NCBI GenBank assembly: GCA_020725175.1
Contig: DYFM01000001.1
Location: forward strand, 1,504-65,503
Reading direction: 5' to 3'
DNA: 64,000 bases
Origin: Candidatus Paceibacter sp.
GTDB taxonomy: Bacteria > Patescibacteriota > Patescibacteriia > Magasanikbacterales > UBA922
A model generated the notes under the pieces. That model ran no database searches. It was not told where the DNA came from and saw only the letters and a list, made by a program, of their open reading frames with translations. The first letter of the stretch is position 1, and every line of letters starts with the position of its first letter. Position numbers and translations under genes: made by a program. This document shows, piece after piece, positions 5,432-48,149 of the stretch.

Positions 5432-5470
5432 TTTCCGTGATAGATATGTTGGTGAGTACTGACTCGATCA

Positions 5471-5517
5471 GAAATAACGAAATAACGAAATAAAGAAATA
5501 AAGAAATAAAGAAATAA
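5471..5517. repeat. Tandem heptanucleotide array (CGAAATA/AGAAATA) x ~7 downstream of rplO
   Basis: gaaataacgaaataacgaaataaagaaataaagaaataaagaaataa, read directly in the sequence; preceded by tactgactcga. Confidence 0.85.
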
Positions 5518-7406: not shown

Positions 7407-7662
7407 GAATACTGAGATGATAAGCAAGAAATATTTATAAAGAAAATTACAAGACGTATAAAACAAATAAAATATATAAAATGTTTAAAACGAATAACAT
7501 ATACAAAACATCTAAACAAATGAATTACCTGCAGCAGACTGTAGGGAATCCAACACTCGTCCACCTAGGGCGGATGAAGCAAACAATTAAGCAAATAATC
7601 CAATAAACTAATTTTCTCATTAACTATTTAACGAATATACTATTTACCAATTACACGTACGT

Positions 7663-13371: not shown

Positions 13372-14424
13372 ATGAAACGCAAAAAGAGAAAGGTAGTATC
13401 TTCTACCCTCCCCACTGGTTTTTTAGAGAGGCTCGCGATGTTCGTGAGTCCTTCTGTTTTTCGTGAAATGGAAAAACTGTTTGTGGAGCGACCAACGACG
13501 CTTCGGACAAATGGCATTAAAGTAAAAAAACATGAAAGCATGAAAGCAATATTAGGAGAGTTTGGGTTTAAAACGAGGAAAGTTGATTGGTACAAGGATG
13601 CGATGATTTTGGAAAATAGGACGAAACGAGATTTGACCGAAACGAAACCGTATGAAGAGGGAAAGATATATATACAGAGTTTGGCGAGTATGGTACCGCC
13701 ATTGATTCTTGATCCGAAACCAGGCGAAAAAGTGCTGGATCTCACAGCTGCGCCGGGGAGTAAAACATCGCAGATGGCGATGATGATGGAGAAGACCGGT
13801 GAGTTGGTGGCAAATGATAATAATAAAGTGAGGTTTTTTAAATTGAAGCACAATATGGAGTTGTTGGGGGTGGTCGGTGATGCCGACACCCCCCACCACT
13901 CCGGCGGGCAGGCATCCCCAACCTCTCCCCTAAACGGGGAGGGGGGATTGAGTTCTGATTGGAAATTTGTTTTACGGATGGAGCATGGTGCAAAGTTATG
14001 TCGAGAGTATCCGGAATATTTTGATAAGATACTACTTGATGCGCCATGTAGTGCGGAGGCGAGATTTGTGCTTGGTAATCCAAAGACGTTTGGGTATTGG
14101 AGTGAACGAAAAATTAAAGAAATGGCCTATAAACAGCGGCAGTTGCTTTTGGCGGCGTGGGGAGCGCTGAAGCCGGGTGGAGTGCTGGTGTATTCTACTT
14201 GTACCATGGCACCGGAAGAGAATGAGGTACAGATTTCTCGGTTATTGGAACGAAATCCTGATGCAGAAATCGAGAACATTGCAATTCCGGGTTTGAAAGT
14301 CGTCCCACCGGTGTTGACCTGGAAAGAAAAAGCTCTGCATTCTGGTGTAAAGAAAAGTTTGCGGATTATGCCAACGAAGGAAGTGGAGGGATTTTTTGTG
14401 GCAAAAATTCGGAAGAGGAAGTAA
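13372..14424 (+). CDS. RsmB/Sun/NOP2-family rRNA (cytosine-C5)-methyltransferase carrying an in-frame GC-rich palindromic insertion
   Basis: LDLTAAPGSKTSQ (SAM binding), ILLDAPCSAEA (motif IV Cys) and VYSTCTMAPEENE (motif VI Cys); insertion GDADTPHHSGGQASPTSPLNGEGGLSSD encoded by GC-rich 13876-13950. Confidence 0.8.
   Translation: MKRKKRKVVSSTLPTGFLERLAMFVSPSVFREMEKLFVERPTTLRTNGIKVKKHESMKAILGEFGFKTRKVDWYKDAMILENRTKRDLTETKPYEEGKIYIQSLASMVPPLILDPKPGEKVLDLTAAPGSKTSQMAMMMEKTGELVANDNNKVRFFKLKHNMELLGVVGDADTPHHSGGQASPTSPLNGEGGLSSDWKFVLRMEHGAKLCREYPEYFDKILLDAPCSAEARFVLGNPKTFGYWSERKIKEMAYKQRQLLLAAWGALKPGGVLVYSTCTMAPEENEVQISRLLERNPDAEIENIAIPGLKVVPPVLTWKEKALHSGVKKSLRIMPTKEVEGFFVAKIRKRK
13876..13950. 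mobile_element. GC-rich palindromic (REP/RPE-like) element inserted in frame in rsmB-like gene; core ctcccctaaacggggaggggg
   Basis: Local GC far above the ~42% background; hairpin ctcccc-taaac-ggggag; ORF stays open through it. Confidence 0.65.
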
Positions 14425-24195: not shown

Positions 24196-24260
24196 CCCCC
24201 ACCCGAGGCGGGTAAACAAGGTGGGTAAACAAGGCTGACAGGTAAGGCGGACACGTGCGT
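24196..24260. repeat. Intergenic GC-rich patch with cccgaggcgg core and tandem gggtaaacaag x2
   Basis: ...cacccgaggcgggtaaacaaggtgggtaaacaagg...; core shared with the elements at 40821, 40989, 41114 and in recG. Confidence 0.5.
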
Positions 24261-26108: not shown

Positions 26109-26216
26109 GCTCTGAGTTAGCTGAGCTAGCTAAGTTTTCTGAGTGCTCTAAGTTTTCTAAGAGTAGACTCAGTCAACTCAGAACACTCAGAAAACTCAGA
26201 ACACTTAGTTAACTCA
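26109..26216. repeat. Dyad-symmetric array of 9-bp repeats (ctgagNNNN x6 / NNNNctcag x5) immediately upstream of parA
   Basis: ctgagttag ctgagctag ctaagtttt ctgagtgct ctaagtttt ctaagagta | gactcagt caactcag aacactcag aaaactcag aacacttag ttaactcag. Confidence 0.75.
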
Positions 26217-26221
26217 GCACC

Positions 26222-28050: not shown

Positions 28051-28108
28051 CGAAATATCGAAATAACGAAATAGCGAAATAAAGAAATGAAGAAATAACG
28101 AAATACAA
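28051..28108. repeat. Tandem heptanucleotide array (CGAAATA-like x ~8) downstream of parB; same family as 5471-5517
   Basis: cgaaatatcgaaataacgaaatagcgaaataaagaaatgaagaaataacgaaatac, preceded by catactcga. Confidence 0.85.
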
Positions 28109-34168: not shown

Positions 34169-34180
34169 TATTGAAACGTT

Positions 34181-34540
34181 TTACTTTTGAACATTAATCC
34201 AGCCACGTAACGTTCTGCCGGTTTCATTACAGTGTTTAGACAATTCTTGATATGTTTCTAACGGTAAGTATTTCAGATCATAGCTTAATAGAAGGAAATA
34301 TTTTACTTCTTCTAGTGAGCTCATGGCTACTTCATAAAAACGAAGGCTTTCTTTTGTAGTGTTTCGGTAAAATCCTTCAACGATATTGGCTGCTACTGAT
34401 ATCATTGCTCGGCGCATTTGGGATGTTACACCATACAATTCTTCCTTTGGAAAATTTCTCGTAACTTTGTATATTTCAAGAACTGTCTTATGTGCCATTT
34501 GCCAGGCTTTAATATCCTGAAAACGCGTTATTGTCGGCAT
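34181..34540 (-). CDS. Four-helix-bundle protein (23S rRNA intervening-sequence protein family)
   Basis: MPTITRFQDIKAWQMAHKTVLEIYKVTRNFPKEELYGVTSQMRRAMISVAANIVEGF... matches the conserved DL[KR]VWQ...E.[YF]GL..Q[ML]RRA..S...NI.EG motif as I recall it. Confidence 0.6.
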   Translation of the reverse strand: MPTITRFQDIKAWQMAHKTVLEIYKVTRNFPKEELYGVTSQMRRAMISVAANIVEGFYRNTTKESLRFYEVAMSSLEEVKYFLLLSYDLKYLPLETYQELSKHCNETGRTLRGWINVQK

Positions 34541-34569
34541 ACTATGAAAAATTACTAGAAACATGTTAA

Positions 34570-40670: not shown

Positions 40671-40701
40671 AACCGTCCGGTATTGACGGTTTTCGTTTTT
40701 T
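40671..40701 (+). terminator. Rho-independent terminator overlapping the tRNA promoter -35
   Basis: aaccgtc-cggtatt-gacggtt hairpin then ttcgtttttt. Confidence 0.55.
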
Positions 40702-40711
40702 CGGCTATACT
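40683..40711 (+). promoter_or_regulatory. Sigma70-type promoter for tRNA-Arg: TTGACG -17 nt- TATACT
   Basis: TTGACG at 40683-40688, 17-nt spacer, TATACT at 40706-40711, 22 nt upstream of the tRNA 5' end. Confidence 0.55.
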
Positions 40712-40733
40712 ATGCTGCGTGTAAGAAATTTAG

Positions 40734-40808
40734 GCTCTCGTCGTTCAATGGATAGGACATGGGTTTGCGGAACCCAAGATCTAAGTTCGATTCTTAGCGA
40801 GAGCACCA
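40734..40808 (+). tRNA. tRNA-Arg (anticodon GCG) with encoded CCA
   Basis: GCTCTCG-TC-GTTC-AATGGATA-GGAC-A-TGGGT-TTGCGGA-ACCCA-AGAT-CTAAG-TTCGATT-CTTAG-CGAGAGC-A-CCA; 7-bp acceptor, U8, GG in D-loop, U33, purine 37, TTC in T-loop, A58. Confidence 0.75.
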
Positions 40809-41160
40809 ATAGAAGAGTCGTTTCCGCCCGAGGCGGACCCGCCTTGGGCGGGCAATGGATAGGACATGGGTTTGCGGAACCCAAGATCTAAGTTCGATTC
40901 TTAGCAGGTGCACAGTGTATAGGTGTTGGTTTGTCGGGTCATCCGACCCGATCGGGTTGAATAACCCGACGGAACCCAAGATCTAAGTTCTCCTCCCGAG
41001 GCGGATCCGTCCTGGGCGGAGATTCTTAGCAGGTGCACAGTGTATAGGTGTTGGTTTGTCGGGTCATCCGACCCGATCGGGTTGAATAACCCGACGGAAC
41101 CCAAGATCTAAGTTCTCCTCCCGAGGCGGATCCGTCCTGGGCGGAGATTCTTAGCGAGAG
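40809..41160 (+). repeat. Composite tandem array: partial tRNA-Arg copies (D-loop-to-T-arm, then anticodon-stem-to-T-arm x2), each later unit split inside the T-loop by a 30-bp GC-rich palindrome, separated by an identical 65-bp palindromic spacer; ends with a duplicate of the tRNA 3' acceptor strand
   Basis: ggaacccaagatctaagttc...gattcttagc recurs at 40770, 40877, 40972, 41097; 125-bp unit 40906-41030 is repeated exactly at 41031-41155; palindromes ccgcccgaggcggacccgccttgggcggg (40824) and tcctcccgaggcggatccgtcctgggcgga (40989, 41114); final cttagcgagagcac repeats the tRNA 3' end. Confidence 0.8.
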
Positions 41161-41164
41161 CACG

Positions 41165-41191
41165 AAAAAACTGCCAATATGGCAGTTTTTT
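41165..41191 (+). terminator. Rho-independent terminator closing the tRNA/repeat unit
   Basis: aaaaactgcc-aatat-ggcagtttttt perfect hairpin plus T6. Confidence 0.75.
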
Positions 41192-41218
41192 AAACTTGTA
41201 GTAAATGTGTGAAAGATA

Positions 41219-43196
41219 TCAACTAGTTGTTGATGAATATTTATTTTTTAACATTTTCACGAGTGCTTCGGCCGCATGTTTCGCTAGTTCTACTTTACTT
41301 ATGTTATTTTTTCTCAAATTATCATCTCCCAATGCTTCTATCATCGTGTAACAGACACCGGATGGCAGTTCTGATAAAAGCTGTCGCCAATATTTTTCAA
41401 CTGTACTACTATAACTTTCAGCAAAAAAGTTATTTCCAAAAGGAGTATTTGTCTTTTCTCCACTTATAAGAGTTACTCCATGCTGAGTAATTGTAGCTTT
41501 TGAATCATGTTTTTGAGTGCCGGAGTTTACAGCCCGTTCTGCTTTCTGGAAAATTTCAAACGCTGTTTGTTGATCTTCGATATTTACAATCGCACTGTCT
41601 GGGGTGTCATCAAGATTATCAAGTTGTGATAAGGTGCCTTTCTTGTGAAGTTCGGTGGCAATTCTTTTCGGAATAATAAAATTATTTGTGTAGAATACAT
41701 GATGCACTTTATGTTCTTGGGGATTTCCATCCTTATCAAAGGCAAACCGTGACATGTTTGGATCCATCACACGGGCATTTTTTTTGCCGGTTGTTATTGT
41801 TGTTCCTTGTATATTAGCAAACTCTTCCATCATTTTTGAGTCGGCATTTGACATGTTGCCATAGTCGCCGCGCTCTACAGGAATGGCGTACCATCCATCT
41901 TTTTTTTTTCCTCATATGAAACATATCACCGGCTACAATGCGTAAATCTACTATACTTCCGGCTTTTTTCATTCGAGTAAGTTGCTCAATCATTTCACCT
42001 TTTCCGGTGGAACTCTCTCCGGCAAATGCAAGGCCTATCCATTCTCCGCCTTTTTCTAACTGAATCTGCACACATGCTCCGTGAACAGGTAAAATAGTCT
42101 CGCCTTCCCGAAGGAGTGCTTCCGTATTCGCCATTTCGGAAATGCACTTTTTAGCGTAAGCGTGGTATCGGTGTCCTGGATCAGTATCCGTCGTCAACTT
42201 ATCAGATAAAAATCCGACATGTACTCGCTTTCCCCCTACAGGCTGGTGAGTGTAGTAGAATCTGTCATTTAAACTGTTTTCTGTAATCGTTTCGTGACTG
42301 ACTCCTAAGAAGAGAATATTGTCAAACGTCAGACCATGGAAATTTTTCGCCACCATAAATTGCTGCGAACAGGTGACAAGTTGTTCTAAAAACGTACGTT
42401 TATTAAAAATTGCTAGCGTATTTGTAACCCCAGTTCTAAGCGGTAAAGCAAGATAATCCCCCGGAACAATGGAGTCAAGTAGGGCTTTTATTTCCGGTTT
42501 ATGTTCTTCATATTTAAATCTCCCTTTTCGTTTGTTCGAGTCGGTTGTAAATATAATTTGGTTGATGAGTGGAATAACATCTGTTACGACCGGAACTTCT
42601 CTCACTATTGTGTCCAATTTTTCGTCTCCTGTTTGTATTCGTTCTTTATCTTGATCGTTAAAATGACTATACTCAATGACAAACTCATGGGTTGGATCAA
42701 GAAAAACCGATTTGTTTTCAAAGTGGAAAGGGTTTTTTTTTGTTCCTACTGCCTGTTCTATTGCACCAAACATTTGATAGAGTGACTGTTTGAGAGTGCG
42801 AAACTTTTCAATATTCTTTGTAGTTGCTTGTTCTGTGTCTTGACTTTTCATTATTCCGTAACGAATAGAGAAGGTGGTCCAGTGATTGAATAGACTCTGC
42901 AAATCTTGTCGCAATTTTGTACGATCAACCCATCGAGGTACATTTTTATTATGTATAATATCTTGTAAAATAGGCAAATTAAGTACTAAAGGTTCATAGT
43001 TTTTTTTCCACCGAGAAAAAATAGCCTTAAATTGATTACTTCCCACAATTTCTTGGGGAGATTGACACAGTTCTTCTTCGGGAGTATCTATTGGTTCTCT
43101 TGTTGGTACCGTATCGGCTGCGGTTGCTAATGCATCTTGAGATGTGATGGGTTTGTTATATTCTGGCGCTATTCCATCATTTGTTATTATGCTCAT
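41219..43196 (-). pseudogene. ~660-aa P-loop protein (resembles the PEP-carboxykinase / HprK kinase fold) split into 460-aa and 211-aa ORFs by a +1 frameshift at a poly-A10 tract (plus-strand T10 at 41890-41899)
   Basis: Deleting one A fuses the frames: ...GDMFHMRKKK|DGWYAIPVERGDYGNMSNADSK.... Motifs GLAFAGESSTGKGE, IVAGDMFHM..DGW and VHHVFYTNNFIIP parallel PEPCK GLSGTGKT / LIGDDEHGW / VSYPIYHIDNIV, from memory. Confidence 0.5.
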
Positions 43197-43411
43197 AAAG
43201 TATTTTTATTAAACATGCTACTATGATACACCTTTGTACGAATAAGTAAATGGTTTAATGGGTTTTTTGTGGATAATTTTTTTGCTTTTGTGTATCGAGT
43301 AAGTTGGTGGGGCGCGGGACATGCGTAGTGTCTGGTAAGAAGTAGAGATGTTGGGGGAGTGAGATATGGGTTAGTAGAGTTTTTTTGCTATTCCTGCTAC
43401 AATAATTCCGT

Positions 43412-45613
43412 ATGAAGCTCACCACCAAAGTCAGTCAACTAAATCGCGTGGGGGAAGTGCTTGCTCGGCGATTGAAGCATCTCGGAATTGAAACCGTAGA
43501 GGATTTGTTATTTTACTATCCATTTCGATATGAAGATTTCAGTCAAAGCGAACAGATAAAAAAATTGAAAGAAGGAGAACAGGTGACGGTACGAGGAAAG
43601 GTGGAACTTATCGCCAATAAACGGAGTCCTCGAAAAGGAAAAATTATTACCGAAGCGGTGGTGGCTGATGACGCGGATCGGTTGCGGGTGGTGTGGTTTG
43701 GTCAGCCGTTTATCGCAAAAACAATTCATGTTGGAGATACGGTTTTTTTGTCCGGAAAAGTCTCTCGAGATATGTTTGGGCTGGTCATGAAATCACCGAG
43801 TTATGAAAAAGAAAAGAAACTTGCAAAACAGCACCTTGAAGATATTTCTTCACAGCAAAAAGATGGCGATATTGAACAGACGCACACTGGAAGGTTGGTG
43901 CCGATCTATTCTTTGACTGCCGGGATCACTCAAAAACAGCTACGTTTTTTGATTAGTCAGGTAATTTCACTCTCGTCAACACTGGAAGAATGGTTGCCGG
44001 TAGAAATATTGGAAGGGGCGGACTTGATACCAATTCAGGACGCGGTGAAAGCCATTCATTTTCCCGAAGATCGGACCGATTTGCAGCAGGCAAAAAAACG
44101 GTTGAAATTTGATGAACTATTTATTCTTCAGCTTCGGGCTGAAATGATCCGTCAGTCGATCAAACGCGAAGAAGCGCCGAAACTGGTATTTCAAGAAACA
44201 TTGATCAAAGAATTTGTTCAAAGACTACCGTTTACGTTGACCAATGCACAAAAGATTGCCACCTGGGAAATTTTACAAGATATTCAAAAATCGGAACCGA
44301 TGAACCGTTTGCTCGAAGGTGATGTGGGAAGCGGAAAAACGGTGGTGGCAGCGATGTGTCTGTATAACGCGGTGTTAAACGGGTATCAGGGAGTTTTGAT
44401 GGCACCAACGGAGATACTCGCGAAACAGCATTTTGAATCTATTGTTAGTTTGTTGGGAGAAGCATGTGCTGTCGCGTTGTTGACTGGTTCTGAAACTGGA
44501 AATTGTCAGCCCAAGGCTGATCCGCCTCGGGCGGAGAAATTGGAAATTGGGGAAAAAACAAAAAAGGGGAAAAGAGCGGAATTGTTGAAGTTTGTAAAAA
44601 ACGGAACAGCGAACATTATTGTTGGTACCCATGCGTTGTTGGTGGATGAGGTGAAGTTTAAACAGTTGGGATTGGTGATTGTGGATGAGCAGCATCGTTT
44701 TGGAGTAGAACAGCGAAAAACAATCCGCGAGAAGTCCGGGGTTGGTGGAATGACACCGCATTTCTTGAGCATGACGGCGACTCCAATTCCGCGTTCATTT
44801 GCGCTGACGCTCTACGGCGATTTAGATTTATCAATTATCAATCAAATGCCGGCCAATCGAAAGCCTATTCAGACACGACTCGTTGATCCGCATCAACGGG
44901 AGAAAGCCTATGGATTTATTCGATCTCAAGTGAAAGAAGGGAGGCAGGTATTTGTGATTTGTCCGTTGATTAGCAAGGAACAAGGAACAAGGAACAAGGA
45001 ACAAGATGTTGAGCCATCGCGTTTACTATCTTTGCAGGATGAGAGAAAGACCGTGATGGAGGAATATGAAAAATTGAAAAATCATGTTTTTCCGGATTTG
45101 CGTGTGGGGTATTTGCACGGGAAAATGAAATCGGCGGAGAAAGATGTGATGATGAAGCAGTTTGCGGCCGGAGAGATTGATATTTTGGTGTCGACGTCGG
45201 TGGTTGAGGTTGGGGTAAATATTCCAAATGCCTCGGTCATGATGATTGAGGGGGCGGAGCGTTTTGGACTCGCGCAGTTGCATCAGTTTCGGGGGCGAGT
45301 AGGGCGAAGCGAGTATCAGTCGTATTGCTTTTTGTTTACCGAAAGTCAGTCGGACAGCTCGCGAGGGAGACTGGAATTTTTTGAAAAAACTCTTGATGGT
45401 TTCAAACTGGCTGAATATGATCTCAATACGCGAGGTCCCGGAGAAGTCTATGGTACGTCCCAAAGTGGCCTCATGAATTTTCGGTTGGCAAGTATGAAGG
45501 ATACTGCTATAATCAAACTGGCCCGAGATACGGCCCGGGGAATTGATTTTGAAAAATACCCGTTACTTAAGGAAAAAGTAAAAGAATGGGAGGGGAGAGT
45601 ACATTTGGAATGA
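43412..45613 (+). CDS. recG: ATP-dependent DNA helicase RecG, with two in-frame insertions (palindromic element; heptamer repeat)
   Basis: Wedge/OB N-terminus, helicase motifs GDVGSGKT (I), DEQHRFG (II), TATPIPRS, QFRGRVGR (VI). Confidence 0.9.
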   Translation: MKLTTKVSQLNRVGEVLARRLKHLGIETVEDLLFYYPFRYEDFSQSEQIKKLKEGEQVTVRGKVELIANKRSPRKGKIITEAVVADDADRLRVVWFGQPFIAKTIHVGDTVFLSGKVSRDMFGLVMKSPSYEKEKKLAKQHLEDISSQQKDGDIEQTHTGRLVPIYSLTAGITQKQLRFLISQVISLSSTLEEWLPVEILEGADLIPIQDAVKAIHFPEDRTDLQQAKKRLKFDELFILQLRAEMIRQSIKREEAPKLVFQETLIKEFVQRLPFTLTNAQKIATWEILQDIQKSEPMNRLLEGDVGSGKTVVAAMCLYNAVLNGYQGVLMAPTEILAKQHFESIVSLLGEACAVALLTGSETGNCQPKADPPRAEKLEIGEKTKKGKRAELLKFVKNGTANIIVGTHALLVDEVKFKQLGLVIVDEQHRFGVEQRKTIREKSGVGGMTPHFLSMTATPIPRSFALTLYGDLDLSIINQMPANRKPIQTRLVDPHQREKAYGFIRSQVKEGRQVFVICPLISKEQGTRNKEQDVEPSRLLSLQDERKTVMEEYEKLKNHVFPDLRVGYLHGKMKSAEKDVMMKQFAAGEIDILVSTSVVEVGVNIPNASVMMIEGAERFGLAQLHQFRGRVGRSEYQSYCFLFTESQSDSSRGRLEFFEKTLDGFKLAEYDLNTRGPGEVYGTSQSGLMNFRLASMKDTAIIKLARDTARGIDFEKYPLLKEKVKEWEGRVHLE
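44510..44536. mobile_element. GC-rich palindromic element in frame inside recG (cccaaggctgatccgcctcgggcggag); reverse complement matches the 40824 element
   Basis: rc ctccgcccgaggcggatcagccttggg vs 40821 tccgcccgaggcggacccgccttgggcggg; encodes ...CQPKADPPRAEK... in an insertion absent from typical RecG. Confidence 0.65.
44974..45005 (+). repeat. (CAAGGAA)x4 heptanucleotide tandem repeat inside recG coding sequence
   Basis: caaggaacaaggaacaaggaacaaggaacaag encoding KEQGTRNKEQ in a loop insertion. Confidence 0.9.
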
Positions 45614-45620
45614 TGTTATT

Positions 45621-48149
45621 ATGTCACCAGGAGATACGGAATATCGTATACATTCGTTTATTCCTGATACGAATGTTTCAAAGGAACAAGAAAACAGAGA
45701 AAGAAGAGTGTCACGATCTTTTGTGACACAATCTTTGCGTTCTGAGGTAATAGAGCCGCACCTTAAGAAGTTATTGGAAACTCATCCGGAGCAAGATGTG
45801 ATTGATGTGTTGGTTGATACTGATTTGACTTCAGTTATGCTGATAGAAAAAGGCTTTGAATCTGTTAATGCCGGGCAGGTGATGCCAACAGGAGGAGAGG
45901 CGGATCAGGGGGAGGATTTTGAGACAGCCGCTTTACGACGGAAGTTTGAAGAAACGCATTTACGGCCGGTAGAAGGAAAGAGACTTGGGAAAATGACTTA
46001 TACATTGAAACATCCATCAAAAGGTGATCGAGATTTACGTGTGCAGTATTTTTCTTTTCATATTTTACCAACCGATGTTTCGTATGCCCATGACCCAGAA
46101 GGAGATAAGATCGGCGGAGTAGTACGACTTACTATTGAGCAGGCTATAGAGCTACTTCAAAAGAATAAACTTTCTTCAAAACAAATATTTTTACTAGAAG
46201 CAGAAACTGGATACGAATCTGCCGAAGAGGTAGCATTGTTGGATAGTTTGCGAACAGTTCGTGAGGATGAAAATGATATAGTAAAGAATGTTAAGCCACA
46301 TGAAGTGGAGCAAATTCAAATTTCTTTCTTACTAGATATTGTTAAAAAAGAAACTGAAAAAAAGAAATCATTGTTACGACAAATTTTGGCAATAAATTCT
46401 TCAAAATTTAGTACTGATGAGATAGAAGAATTGAATACGAAGATAGATCAAAGCAAAGATCAGGTGCAAACACGTAAATGCCTGCGAGAAATACTGGAAA
46501 GCCTGCAGAAAAAGGGATTGTCAAATGAAGATGTTTTTAATACTTATATAGCTGCTATTGATCTGAGTAACTTTGAAGAAGAAGTTGCAGACAAACACGC
46601 TGGTCTTTCAAAGATAGAAGCCCTGTCCCGGTTTATGTTTACCCTGTTAGAAACACGGTATGATTTTGATACTTATATTTCTATCGCAGAAAAGAATCCT
46701 TTTTTAAAGGAATTTATCGGAAAGTTGAGAAATTTTGCTGCCGCAGTAGAAAAGACTGCAAAAAGAAATGGATTAACAGGTAAAAGCCTTCCTCTCTCAG
46801 CTCAACTTGCTTATATTCATGAGTTAGGCGATGGACAGTTAGAAGTACTTTTTATGGACCACTTTTTTTTGACAGATCATGAGCGCGAGGGTGTAGAGCA
46901 ACTGCCTCGAAAAGTGAAAGCGTCTCAGAAACAGGCTCATGATTTTTTTCGGCAGGTAAAGTTGGAGGTGAACAAATTTAATCAAAGTATTGTGCAGAGT
47001 ATACGTCCAGAGTCTGGAGTGACGCACAATGTAAAATTGTTGGAACAGATGCATGAGGTGGAAGAAGCATCGGTAGCAAATCTTATTCGATTAAGTTTTT
47101 CAAATACCTTACCACCAGACGTGTTAAGGAGGTTTGTTCCTAAAGGCAAAAGAAAGACCAATGAAGAAAGAGAAAAAATTAAACATTTAATAAAACGTTA
47201 TAAATTTGAATGTCGAAGAAAACTGATGGACATGTATTTATTTTATGAGCCAAATGAATTTTTTCGGCAGGTACAAACTGAGAATCGTCCGGTGCAAAAC
47301 CAGGTTTGGAATAAAATTTCCAGTTTTCCAATATACCAAATATTTGTGCGACTTGAAAAAGATGGTACTGATCTGCGAGCAGTAGAGGTACTAGATTCTG
47401 ATGTAAATCCTGAGGAAAGCAAGAATATTTTAGTGGTTGATGTACGCGCATACAAAACTGATCGAGGCTTTTATTATGTTCACCAAAATGGACTTCCGAA
47501 AGAAATTGAATCATTTATGAGAAAGCTAATGGTAAGAGGGTATGATAATTATGAACAGGTTGAAGATATTCATCGTCGGGCAATTGTGCTTTTTGGCGGT
47601 GAGAATGAAGAAACGAGGCAGCGTTTGCATGAAAGAGAAAACGTCGTCTTTTCAGTGAGCGAATTAGATCCGCAAATTGTAAAAGACAAGACAGCCTCGG
47701 AACAAGAGGTGGAAGACGTGGCTGCAGTTTTTGATATTATTCGTGCTTTGAAAAAAATTCCGGGCGTAAAAATAAAAAACTATCGACCTACCAACAAGCC
47801 TGGAGAAACATATAAAAGTAAAAGTGTCGGTGGTGGTGGAAAAGTAGTGTTTGCGAAGTTGTATATTGAGTACACACCTCCTGGCGAAGTAAAGACATAT
47901 CATGAAGAGGTGATGCTTTTTTCTCCCACACCAAAAGAGGGGGGGTTTTCGGAGCAATCAGCCTATTTTTGGTTTGAATTCAAAAAAGCCGATGACAAAA
48001 AGTACGCTTTTTCTCGACTTCTTTCCACTAAGTCACTGCGCTCATTTATTGACCTTCGATATCCGCCACAGATATATGGAAAGCCGGTTCGGCAAGTTGT
48101 TGGAAGATTTATAGAAACACAGAAGCAAAAGAGAAAGGGAAAAGATTAA
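45621..48149 (+). CDS. Large hypothetical protein (842 aa), likely co-transcribed with recG
   Basis: Starts 8 nt after the recG stop; long uninterrupted ORF with coiled-coil-like segments; no motif I can assign. Confidence 0.5.
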   Translation: MSPGDTEYRIHSFIPDTNVSKEQENRERRVSRSFVTQSLRSEVIEPHLKKLLETHPEQDVIDVLVDTDLTSVMLIEKGFESVNAGQVMPTGGEADQGEDFETAALRRKFEETHLRPVEGKRLGKMTYTLKHPSKGDRDLRVQYFSFHILPTDVSYAHDPEGDKIGGVVRLTIEQAIELLQKNKLSSKQIFLLEAETGYESAEEVALLDSLRTVREDENDIVKNVKPHEVEQIQISFLLDIVKKETEKKKSLLRQILAINSSKFSTDEIEELNTKIDQSKDQVQTRKCLREILESLQKKGLSNEDVFNTYIAAIDLSNFEEEVADKHAGLSKIEALSRFMFTLLETRYDFDTYISIAEKNPFLKEFIGKLRNFAAAVEKTAKRNGLTGKSLPLSAQLAYIHELGDGQLEVLFMDHFFLTDHEREGVEQLPRKVKASQKQAHDFFRQVKLEVNKFNQSIVQSIRPESGVTHNVKLLEQMHEVEEASVANLIRLSFSNTLPPDVLRRFVPKGKRKTNEEREKIKHLIKRYKFECRRKLMDMYLFYEPNEFFRQVQTENRPVQNQVWNKISSFPIYQIFVRLEKDGTDLRAVEVLDSDVNPEESKNILVVDVRAYKTDRGFYYVHQNGLPKEIESFMRKLMVRGYDNYEQVEDIHRRAIVLFGGENEETRQRLHERENVVFSVSELDPQIVKDKTASEQEVEDVAAVFDIIRALKKIPGVKIKNYRPTNKPGETYKSKSVGGGGKVVFAKLYIEYTPPGEVKTYHEEVMLFSPTPKEGGFSEQSAYFWFEFKKADDKKYAFSRLLSTKSLRSFIDLRYPPQIYGKPVRQVVGRFIETQKQKRKGKD

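What the first reader, a model, noticed from the sequence alone, without database searches (positions are those of the whole stretch)
44510..44536. A distinct GC-rich palindrome family (core cccgaggcgg) inside recG, shared with the tRNA-Arg repeat array and an intergenic site
recG carries cccaaggctgatccgcctcgggcggag in frame (…CQPKADPPRAEK…), within an insertion that RecG proteins normally lack. Its reverse complement, ctccgcccgaggcggatcagccttggg, matches tccgcccgaggcggacccgccttgggcggg at 40821 and tcctcccgaggcggatccgtcctgggcgga at 40989 and 41114. A partial core cacccgaggcggg lies at 24196 and gagaggcggatcag at 45889. This is a second palindromic element family that inserts in coding DNA, intergenic DNA and RNA genes.
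Basis: seen in the sequence. Interest (0 to 1): 0.7.

Follow-up and report, generated by a model that had tools for sequence, protein, structure and literature searches.

The report
Tiny double-hairpin mobile element in Patescibacteria
The GC-rich palindrome in recG is a real 30-base insertion made of two adjacent hairpins, one copy of a family found across the ultrasmall Patescibacteria (CPR) bacteria, where it sits in frame in housekeeping genes, in broken tRNA copies and, most tellingly, just upstream of small GIY-YIG nuclease genes lodged at tRNA genes.

Summary
The window, a Candidatus Magasanikbacteria contig, holds four copies of a discrete 30-nt element: 40823, 40991, 41116 and 44506. 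The "partial cores" at 24196 and 45889 are chance matches.

The element is two adjacent 15-nt hairpins (NNNGCC-YNR-GGCN'N'N' twice), not one long palindrome. Covariation supports this strongly.

Deleting exactly 30 nt from recG restores GNWKLEIG, as encoded by (GAAATTG)n in an ortholog. No target duplication is made.

The same element, nearly identical, turned up in more than 117 loci, almost all from diverse Patescibacteria. Of 125 copies, 57% lie inside long ORFs. 76% of those are in the one phase that encodes Ser/Ala/Gly-rich linkers, and none introduces a stop.

Non-coding copies often sit in loops of orphan tRNA fragments. In 80 loci chosen only by a small GIY-YIG (UPF0213/Slx1-like) protein, about 85% carry such a hairpin dimer. 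It lies 5–60 nt upstream of the start codon, inside a 5' tRNA-Ser/Tyr orphan, and an intact tRNA follows the ORF.

Best reading: a DNA-level, MITE-like solo copy of the hairpin module of tRNA-targeting GIY-YIG selfish cassettes. Mobilisation by that nuclease is inferred, not shown. I found no published description. The closest analogues are mitochondrial double-hairpin elements and Rickettsia palindromic elements.

The parts
44506..44535 (-). Element copy E3 inside recG. The + strand reads TCAGCC-CAA-GGCTGA|TCCGCC-TCG-GGCGGA. It encodes (C)QPKADPPRA(E), residues about 365-375.
   Evidence: Removing it restores aat tgg aaa ttg gaa att ggg = GNWKLEIG, as in orthologs P0016/P0037. AF2 pLDDT is below 50 at residues 366-376, in coil. 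The sequence is identical to the cassette module of L155.
44492..44505 (+). Two heptamer units (gaaactg gaaattg) immediately 5' of E3; part of the target array.
   Evidence: Ortholog L121 has (GAAATTG)x4 uninterrupted.
44536..44549 (+). Two heptamer units (gaaattg gaaattg) immediately 3' of E3.
   Evidence: TRF period 7 at 44536-44550.
43412..45613 (+). recG, the host gene of E3.
   Evidence: RecG_wedge, DEAD, Helicase_C; homologs named RecG.
40823..40852 (+). Element copy E1 (TCCGCC-CGA-GGCGGA|CCCGCC-TTG-GGCGGG), inserted at the D-arm position (tcgtt^caatgg) of a tRNA-Arg-like second copy.
   Evidence: The flanks match the intact tRNA sequence cgtcgtt|caatggatagg with no duplication. The tRNA-like copy scores 27.1 bits against a threshold of 29.
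40991..41020 (+). Element copy E2 (TCCTCC-CGA-GGCGGA|TCCGTC-CTG-GGCGGA) in the T-loop position (aagttc^gattc) of a degenerate tRNA-like copy.
   Evidence: The intact tRNA has ctaagttcgattcttag.
41116..41145 (+). Second copy of E2, produced by the perfect 125-nt tandem duplication. Possibly an assembly artefact or polymorphism.
   Evidence: The unit occurs once in L001.
40734..40808 (+). Intact tRNA-Arg(GCG), free of insertions. The tRNA-like copies that carry the elements derive from it.
40809..41162 (+). Array of tRNA-Arg-like partial copies. Each is interrupted by double-hairpin elements (E1, P, E2). The array ends with the original 3' acceptor (gagagcac) just before a terminator-like hairpin at about 41165-41191.
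40934..40969 (+). A different 36-nt double hairpin 'P' (TCGGGT-catccg-ACCCGA|TCGGGT-tgaata-ACCCGA) at the anticodon-loop position (ggtttg^cggaaccc). A second copy lies at 41059-41094.
   Evidence: (I7).

Best explanation
The 30-nt sequence is a solo copy of a DNA-level, non-autonomous mobile element made of two adjacent GC-rich hairpins. Shown: it is a discrete 30-bp insertion that makes no target-site duplication. It prefers TTY^VAA-like sites, often inside period-7 tandem repeats. It recurs independently at the same hot spots in different lineages. It is nearly identical across Patescibacteria classes. In genes it persists only where it stays open, mostly in the phase that encodes Ser-Ala-x-Gly-Gly twice, in surface loops. 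The same hairpin dimer is a standard component of cassettes of the form [5' tRNA orphan + hairpin dimer] - small GIY-YIG (UPF0213/YhbQ/Slx1-like) ORF - [intact class II tRNA]. Inferred: the hairpin dimer is the cis site, extruded as hairpins or a cruciform, that is recognised or cut by that structure-specific GIY-YIG nuclease. Solo copies such as those in recG and in the tRNA-Arg array would then be spread in trans by the same enzyme together with host repair or ligation. Purifying selection would remove every copy that breaks a gene or a functional tRNA.
For: Clean insertion, no duplication:
- recG compared with ortholog DNA.
- tRNA-like copies compared with the intact tRNA.
- PyrG compared with 86-92% identical homologs that lack the element.

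Recurrent hot spots:
- An identical element sits at the same PyrG codon boundary in a Saccharibacteria MAG and a Magasanikbacteria MAG.
- A different 48-nt palindrome sits at the very same recG nucleotide in P0013.

Structure:
- The two-hairpin model is 99.1% paired, with 9 of 12 pairs showing compensatory changes. Covariation is 0.45 against 0.14 in shuffles (0/500).
- The single long hairpin is worse than shuffles.
- 55 of 61 modules have 12/12 Watson-Crick pairs. G.T versus A.C mismatches are 5 versus 3 on the ORF strand, so there is no RNA-type strand bias.

Distribution:
- More than 117 genome loci, of which 88 are labelled with Patescibacteria lineages.
- One 'Gammaproteobacteria' label was shown to be a Patescibacteria genome.
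- Only 1 hit in 2.9 M viral contigs.

Coding filter:
- 71 of 125 copies lie in ORFs of at least 150 codons.
- 54 of those 71 are in phase 0 (P=2e-13).
- Removing a copy never restores a longer ORF, so no copy interrupts a reading frame with a stop.
- The pos-18 A variant, whose TCAGCC/GGCTGA form would read TGA in phase 0, is depleted there: 9/54 against 40/54 in non-coding copies, P=2e-9.

Target preference:
- T at position -2 in 62/71 coding and 50/54 non-coding copies.
- Period-7 repeats flank 10/125 copies against 14/4720 random positions.

GIY-YIG link:
- In loci chosen by protein only, 57-61 of 69 carry the dimer 5-61 nt upstream of the ATG. The background is 18 dimers in 196 kb.
- 52 of 61 have an intact tRNA-Ser/Tyr right after the ORF and a matching 5' orphan around the dimer.
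- The protein matches PF01541 and the UPF0213 structures. That family includes Slx1, YhbQ and YazA (PMC7017083).
- GIY-YIG was the only recurrent non-housekeeping ORF family near the elements.
Against: No GIY-YIG gene was found in the 64-kb window. The rest of this genome was not examined.

GIY-YIG nucleases form no covalent DNA intermediate. They therefore cannot by themselves paste DNA, so a ligation or copying step must be assumed.

The association could mean something else: the dimer may protect the orphan target from re-cutting, or serve expression of the ORF.

No exact 30-nt presence/absence polymorphism between near-identical strains was captured. The only near-identical pair, L182/L187, differs by a 50-nt indel that contains the element.

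The copies in the 125-copy set were found with a pattern that fixes hairpin 1, so its apparent invariance is partly ascertainment.
Confidence: 0.6

Rival explanations
1. A REP/REPIN- or IS200/IS605-derived miniature element (PATE-like). It would be moved as single-stranded DNA by a Y1 (HUH) transposase or RAYT encoded elsewhere in the genome. The link to GIY-YIG cassettes would be only a shared taste for tRNA loops.
For: It is a hairpin pair with no target duplication and a conserved T-rich left flank (TTY^) defined on one strand. That is typical of ssDNA peel-and-paste elements. The stems covary while the loops and inner stem are fixed.
Against: No transposase-like family recurs among about 2100 ORFs around 117 element loci. 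The only recurrent small non-housekeeping family is GIY-YIG. There is no room for the guide tetranucleotides that flank IS200/IS605 hairpins, and no GTAG-type REP head. 57% of copies are intragenic, unlike REPs. The dimer is present in about 85% of GIY-YIG cassettes at a fixed distance from the ATG.
Confidence: 0.15
2. The hairpin dimer is primarily a functional part of the GIY-YIG cassette, not its mobility site. It could be an immunity insert that destroys the nuclease's target in the leftover tRNA orphan, or a 5'-UTR structure for expression or stability. Solo copies in genes would be occasional by-products of repair or gene conversion, not an actively transposing family.
For: The dimer always lies inside the orphan, 5-61 nt before the ATG. 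Copy number per genome seems low: about 1 extra copy per 100 kb of flanking DNA for the exact pattern and about 1 per 11 kb for the wider family. Copies in the window's tRNA array sit in dead tRNA copies.
Against: 71 of 125 copies are in unrelated protein genes far from any cassette. Recurrent insertion at identical sites in distant lineages, with 100% identical element DNA but diverged flanks, needs a site-directed process. No RNA-type G.U bias is seen on the ORF strand.
Confidence: 0.15
3. A host-selected module or an artefact. On this view the sequence is kept because the peptide (SAQGGSASGG-type linker) or an RNA hairpin is useful, or it is an assembly or sequencing artefact.
For: There is a strong phase bias toward a Gly/Ser/Ala-rich peptide. 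The third window copy depends on a 125-nt duplication that differs between assemblies.
Against: The same DNA occurs in non-coding DNA, in tRNA fragments, in both orientations and in all three phases. Synonymous positions are invariant while the flanks diverge. It occurs in more than 100 MAGs from unrelated projects and in two assemblies of this organism. It does not match any Rfam family.
Confidence: 0.05

Closest known systems
Double-hairpin elements (DHEs) of fungal mitochondrial DNA (Allomyces, Schizosaccharomyces; Paquin & Lang, cited in PMC10085805), and related repetitive hairpin-forming elements (PMC2800124)
   Same: Both are short GC-rich units that fold into two adjacent hairpins. Both are dispersed in intergenic DNA and in variable parts of RNA genes, and are not removed from transcripts. 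Both show near-identical copies across species, read as mobility or transfer. From memory (unverified here), some Allomyces DHEs lie next to a mobile endonuclease ORF that duplicated part of its target gene.
   Different: The host is a bacterial superphylum, not organelles. The length is fixed at 30 nt. More than half of the copies are in-frame in protein genes. There is a quantified link to small GIY-YIG ORFs inserted at class II tRNA genes. No sequence similarity was tested.
Rickettsia palindromic elements (RPE; Ogata et al. 2000, from memory)
   Same: Both are palindromic selfish DNA found in frame inside conserved protein genes and in RNA genes of a reduced-genome bacterium. Both are translated as extra loops.
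   Different: RPEs are about 100-150 bp, restricted to Rickettsia, and have no known associated nuclease gene. This element is 30 nt, spans many Patescibacteria classes and is tied to GIY-YIG/tRNA cassettes.
REP/REPIN elements with RAYT transposases; IS200/IS605 and their miniature derivatives
   Same: Both have short hairpin-forming repeats, doublet organisation, no target duplication and a strand-defined flank.
   Different: REPs are extragenic, carry a conserved GTAG-type head and flank a Y1 transposase gene. None of this was seen here.
Free-standing GIY-YIG homing endonuclease genes (e.g. phage T4 seg genes, one of them in the tRNA gene cluster; from memory)
   Same: Both are small GIY-YIG ORFs lodged at conserved genes. 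In both, a partial duplicate of the target remains beside an intact copy.
   Different: The CPR proteins are only 80-100 aa, consisting of the catalytic domain alone (UPF0213/YhbQ-like). They come with a conserved hairpin dimer that also exists as solo copies.
Mobile GC clusters of yeast mitochondrial DNA (var1 gene; mentioned in PMC2800124)
   Same: Both are short GC-rich palindromic clusters in an AT-rich genome that insert in frame into a protein gene and are not removed from RNA.
   Different: Yeast clusters are about 30-50 bp with flanking AG/TAG duplications. They occur only in organelles and have no nuclease partner.

Membership tests
REP/REPIN-RAYT | Conserved 5' tetranucleotide head (GTAG/GTGG type) followed by an imperfect palindrome | tested here: not met
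   The element starts TCCGCC/YCNGCC. No such head appears in 125 copies.
REP/REPIN-RAYT | Extragenic location | tested here: not met
   71 of 125 copies lie inside ORFs of at least 150 codons.
REP/REPIN-RAYT | Associated Y1 (RAYT) transposase gene flanked by the repeats | tested here: inconclusive
   No transposase-like cluster was found among ORFs of 117 loci. No profile search for PF01797 was run, and whole genomes were not scanned.
MITE (classical) | Terminal inverted repeats plus target-site duplication | tested here: not met
   No duplication at recG, PyrG or the tRNA sites. The 7-nt flank repeats occur only where the target is already a heptamer array.
Double-hairpin elements (mitochondrial DHE type) | Two adjacent GC-rich hairpins forming the whole short element | tested here: met
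   Two 6-bp stems with 3-nt loops. 99.1% of cells are paired and 9/12 pairs show compensatory change.
Double-hairpin elements (mitochondrial DHE type) | Dispersed copies in intergenic DNA and RNA genes, with near-identity across species | tested here: met
Double-hairpin elements (mitochondrial DHE type) | Common descent or sequence relationship with the fungal elements | not tested
Resemblance is architectural only.
Rickettsia palindromic elements | In-frame insertion in protein genes, translated | tested here: met
   Every intragenic copy keeps the reading frame open. The recG insert maps to a low-confidence loop. Translation itself was not testable.
Rickettsia palindromic elements | 100-150 bp consensus families of Rickettsia | tested here: not met
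   30 nt, in Patescibacteria.
Free-standing GIY-YIG homing cassette | GIY-YIG ORF adjacent to the element | tested here: not met
   This applies to the window copies: no GIY-YIG ORF in 64 kb. It is met for 57-61 of 69 cassette loci elsewhere.
Free-standing GIY-YIG homing cassette | Site-specific cleavage of the cassette-free allele | not testable with these tools
   Needs biochemistry.
Any Rfam RNA family | Covariance-model match | tested here: not met
   Only tRNA hits in the window and in five cassette loci.

The most novel reading that the evidence does not exclude
The hairpin dimer and the 80-100-aa GIY-YIG (Slx1/YhbQ-like) protein together form a previously undescribed kind of bacterial mobile system. 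A structure-specific nuclease would recognise a 30-bp double cruciform. The autonomous form would home into class II tRNA genes while rebuilding them. The solo 30-bp form would hop into TTY^VAA sites throughout Patescibacteria genomes. That would continually add Gly/Ser/Ala-rich loops to essential proteins and so help explain the many lineage-specific insertions of CPR proteins.
Probability: 0.35. Interest if true: 0.85.

Novelty: new variant of a known kind. Interest (0 to 1): 0.72.

Why it matters
If this holds, one of the smallest known mobile DNAs (30 bp) is shared by a whole bacterial superphylum and is written into essential genes such as recG, dnaK, dnaJ, uvrA, pyrG and valS.

It gives a concrete, testable source for the unexplained peptide insertions typical of CPR proteins. 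It offers a marker for recent insertion events in uncultured lineages. It provides a candidate substrate for the large, functionally obscure UPF0213/YhbQ-type GIY-YIG family.

It also warns annotators that tRNA-like fragments and short GC-rich stretches in these genomes are element scars rather than genes or errors.

Tried and rejected
- **Archaeal-type (bulge-helix-bulge) intron or other RNA-level removal.** Rejected. The termini do not pair when the two stems differ. The copies in tRNA context lie in non-functional duplicates while the intact tRNA is untouched. The coding copies show phase and stop-codon filtering that only makes sense if they are translated.
- **7-bp target-site duplication.** Perfect 7-nt flank repeats are enriched (7 observed against 0.24 expected). 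They occur only inside pre-existing heptamer arrays, and empty sites show no duplication.
- **Inverted-repeat extension into the flanks.** None was found beyond composition.
- **Phage origin.** 1 hit in 2.9 M viral contigs.
- **Rfam.** No family matched.
- **Literature.** Searches for the sequence, the peptides, CPR plus palindromic or MITE, and GIY-YIG plus tRNA gave nothing relevant.
- **Search for autonomous copies** (one hairpin at each end of an ORF). None were found, only solo 15-nt hairpins and diverged dimers.
- **Resemblance to the Alu/7SL 'CCGAGGCGG..GATC' stretch.** Considered coincidental and not pursued.
- **Checking non-CPR labels by local BLAST.** Uninformative. One label was resolved with a database search.
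Full report
**What is in the window**

The window is a contig of a Candidatus Magasanikbacteria (Patescibacteria/CPR) genome. Its RecG is found on a 196-kb JGI contig and in a second sample, and the nearest named homologs (about 65% identity) are Magasanikbacteria.

The sequence reported in recG is there. 44506-44535 reads TCAGCCCAAGGCTGATCCGCCTCGGGCGGA and is translated in frame as CQPKADPPRA. The same 30-nt unit in the opposite orientation occurs at 40823-40852, 40991-41020 and 41116-41145, just downstream of tRNA-Arg(GCG). A 22-nt degenerate pattern hits these four places and nothing else, against 0.01 matches expected from shuffles.

The 'partial cores' at 24196 and 45889 are not members. 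At that stringency the number of extra matches (3) equals the chance expectation (3.3), and neither forms the structure.

The two copies at 40991 and 41116 lie in a perfect 125-nt tandem duplication. That unit is present once in the JGI assembly of the same contig, so they count as one event.

**Anatomy**

The unit is two adjacent 15-nt hairpins, each a 6-bp stem with a 3-nt loop: NNNGCC-C(A/G)A-GGCN'N'N' followed by NNNGCC-T(T/C/A)G-GGCN'N'N'.

I tested this on 45 distinct modules collected independently of their sequence (see below) plus the window copies.
- The two-hairpin model is 99.1% paired. 9 of 12 pairs show compensatory changes. The covariation score is 0.45 against 0.14 for shuffles (0 of 500 reach it).
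- A single 15-bp hairpin fits worse than shuffled data.
- The outer three base pairs of each stem vary freely but stay complementary. The inner GCC/GGC and the loop ends are fixed.
- 55 of 61 modules have 12/12 Watson-Crick pairs. The few mismatches show no G.U-type bias on the transcribed strand (5 G.T against 3 A.C). This points to a DNA-level constraint (hairpins on both strands, or a cruciform) rather than an RNA structure.

**It is an insertion, with sharp ends and no target duplication**

- **recG.** Removing exactly the 30 nt gives aat tgg aaa ttg gaa att ggg = GNWKLEIG. That peptide is found in orthologs P0016, P0037 and P0060. In P0016 the DNA is an uninterrupted (GAAATTG)x4. The window has two heptamers, the element, then two heptamers.
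- **RecG structure.** In an AlphaFold model the insert (residues 366-376) is an unstructured, low-confidence loop between helicase motifs.
- **tRNA-like copies.** The flanks abut exactly as in the intact tRNA: cgtt^caatgg in the D arm and gttc^gattc in the T loop.
- **Same site, different element.** Another RecG ortholog (P0013) carries a different 48-nt palindromic insert at the very same nucleotide, aattg^gaaa.

**Distribution**

- 88 are labelled with Patescibacteria lineages: Magasanik-, Moran-, Saccharibacteria, Parcu-, Doudna-, Uhr-, Kaiser-, Wolfe-, Falkow-, Nomura-, Nealson-, Vogel- and Wildermuthbacteria, among others. 6 are unlabelled.
- 23 carry other labels, mostly automated TPA bins. 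For one such 'Gammaproteobacteria' bin, all named relatives of its UvrB are Patescibacteria. Two high-GC hits (L033, L084) look like chance.
- Only one hit occurs in 2.9 million viral contigs.
- The four bases on each side that the pattern did not fix are 91-99% conserved or covary with their partners, and similarity stops there. This defines a 30-nt unit.

**Context of 125 copies**

- 71 lie inside ORFs of at least 150 codons, including DnaK, DnaJ, UvrA, PyrG, YchF and ValS. For none of the other 54 copies does removal restore a longer ORF, so no copy interrupts a reading frame with a stop.
- 54 of the 71 are in the phase where the element's first base is codon position 1 (P=2e-13). In either orientation this encodes Ser-Ala-x-Gly-Gly twice (SAQGGSASGG or SARGGSALGG).
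- The pos-18 A variant, whose TCAGCC/GGCTGA form would read TGA in that phase, is depleted there: 9/54 against 40/54 in non-coding copies, P=2e-9.
- These are the signatures of random-phase insertion followed by selection on a translated product.
- The flanks show the same preference in coding and non-coding copies, so it is mechanistic. T at -2 occurs in 62/71 and 50/54. Position -1 is mostly a pyrimidine, +1 is rarely T, and +2 is mostly A. The target is roughly TTY^VAA.
- Period-7 tandem repeats surround 8% of copies against 0.3% of random positions. The apparent 7-bp 'duplications' occur only in such arrays.

**Recent and recurrent insertion**

- **PyrG.** The identical 30 nt sits at the same codon boundary (GARTTT^GAAA) in a Saccharibacteria MAG and a Magasanikbacteria MAG, with strongly diverged flanks. 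118 of the 120 closest homologs of the former lack it at that site (one shows an E-like start there). Homologs at 86-92% identity read …DSH(E/D)F-EKS….
- **Other shared sites.** Same-site copies also occur in DnaK, YchF and another gene pair from differently labelled lineages.
- **RecG.** Among 120 homologs, element-type peptides occur at two further sites: P0017, and P0073/P0119.

**The tRNA and GIY-YIG connection**

In 22 of the 117 loci an intact tRNA lies within 400 nt. Deleting the element never restores a tRNA. The element sits in a partial tRNA copy next to the intact gene.

In eight of these loci the order is: 5' tRNA fragment with the element in its D loop or anticodon loop, then a small ORF starting MYYVYILKS…, then the intact tRNA. 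The ORF is a GIY-YIG catalytic domain (PF01541). It is related to the solved UPF0213 proteins BH0048 and EF2693. That family includes E. coli YhbQ, B. subtilis YazA and the structure-specific nuclease Slx1 (PMC7017083).

To remove ascertainment by the element, I fetched 80 metagenome loci by this protein alone.
- Of 69 non-redundant loci with enough upstream DNA, 57 (strict) to 61 (relaxed) have a 30-nt hairpin dimer 5-61 nt before the ATG. The background is 18 such dimers in the remaining 196 kb.
- In 52 of 61, an intact class II tRNA (Ser of all isoacceptor families, or Tyr) begins right after the ORF. The upstream fragment matches its positions 1 to 12-51, with the dimer after position 8, 12-14, 20-23 or 35-38.
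- The recG copy of the window is identical to one of these cassette modules (L155).
- A near-identical pair of loci differs by a 50-nt indel containing the dimer.

**Interpretation**

The shown facts fit a DNA-level selfish element. Its autonomous context is a tRNA-targeting GIY-YIG cassette that rebuilds the tRNA it interrupts. Its hairpin module also exists as dispersed solo copies.

I infer, but cannot show, two things. First, the small nuclease lacks any DNA-binding domain and belongs to a structure-specific family, so it probably recognises the extruded hairpin pair. Second, it is probably responsible for spreading solo copies into TTY^VAA sites. A joining or copying step by host enzymes must be assumed.

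Alternatives remain open. A Y1/RAYT-type enzyme may move the element. The dimer may serve the cassette as an immunity insert or 5'-UTR structure, with solo copies as by-products.

The window's tRNA-Arg array looks like a graveyard of tRNA-Arg copies. Each was hit by a double-hairpin element: E1 in the D arm, a different 36-nt double hairpin in the anticodon loop, and E2 in the T loop. No GIY-YIG ORF is left there, and none was found in the 64 kb.

**Comparison with known systems**

The architecture and behaviour are closest to the double-hairpin elements of fungal mitochondria and to mitochondrial GC clusters (PMC10085805, PMC2800124). The in-frame colonisation of housekeeping genes recalls Rickettsia palindromic elements.

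It is not a REP/RAYT element, a classical MITE or any Rfam family, judged by their defining features (see membership tests).

I found no paper describing this element, its peptides, or the GIY-YIG/tRNA/hairpin cassette in Patescibacteria. The searchable library is incomplete, so prior description cannot be excluded.

**Verdict**

It turns out to be much larger than one genome. I rate it a new variant of a known kind (short palindromic selfish DNA in genes), with an unusual and testable nuclease partner.

Noticed in passing
window 40934-40969 and 41059-41094: A second, unrelated 36-nt double hairpin (TCGGGT-catccg-ACCCGA|TCGGGT-tgaata-ACCCGA) sits at the anticodon-loop position of the tRNA-like copies. 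This suggests a wider class of TC…GA-ended double-hairpin inserts.
   Followed up: partly
window 40896-41145 vs L001 7447-7760: The perfect 125-nt tandem duplication in the tRNA-Arg array is present twice in the window but once in the JGI assembly of the same contig. This is either copy-number polymorphism or an assembly difference.
   Followed up: yes
window 13863-13946 (in ORF 13372-14424): A GC-rich stretch with hairpins (…ctctcccctaaacggggagggg…) is translated as …TSPLNGEGG…. Similar P-x-P…G-E-G inserts appear in RecG orthologs (P0003, P0017, P0019). It is probably another palindromic insert family.
   Followed up: no
window 44974-45005 (recG); L121 about 2604-2660: (CAAGGAA)x4.6 encodes KEQGTRNKEQ in a second variable loop of RecG (pLDDT below 50 at residues 522-541). 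At the corresponding place, ortholog P0016 has another double hairpin (TCCCGCCGCAACGGGATCCCGCTCGCTGCGGGA) flanked by (CAAGTTA)n. Heptamer arrays and double hairpins therefore go together.
   Followed up: partly
window 5470-5517, 7439-7521, 26112-26217, 28051-28105 and others: There are many 7-9-nt tandem arrays in intergenic DNA (e.g. AGAAATAA x6, CGAAATAA x7). Their function is unknown.
   Followed up: no
window about 40700-43200 vs L121 265-1001: The tRNA-Arg array and two ORFs without Pfam hits (41219-41854 and 41814-43196, minus strand) lie between the 167-aa ORF and recG. In the relative encoding P0016 these two genes are adjacent. This may be an inserted block next to the tRNA.
   Followed up: no
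window 40734-40808: The tRNA-Arg has anticodon GCG rather than the ACG usual in bacteria. tRNA-Arg(GCG) also appears in L099 and L117.
   Followed up: no
window about 34180-34565 (L001 895-1278, minus strand): There is a small gene with 23S_rRNA_IVP/bAvd Pfam hits, a family that accompanies diversity-generating retroelements. It was not examined.
   Followed up: no
protein P0049 (RecG homolog): It carries a roughly 190-aa in-frame insertion with a GxxExxY (PF13366) nuclease-like domain between helicase motifs. This is another kind of selfish insert in the same gene family.
   Followed up: no
L114 (oriented region): A solo 16-nt hairpin (TCCGCCAACTGGCGGA) replaces part of a tRNA-Lys orphan. Solo 15-nt hairpins are also seen in L047, L076 and L093. 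The 15-nt hairpin may be the basic unit.
   Followed up: partly
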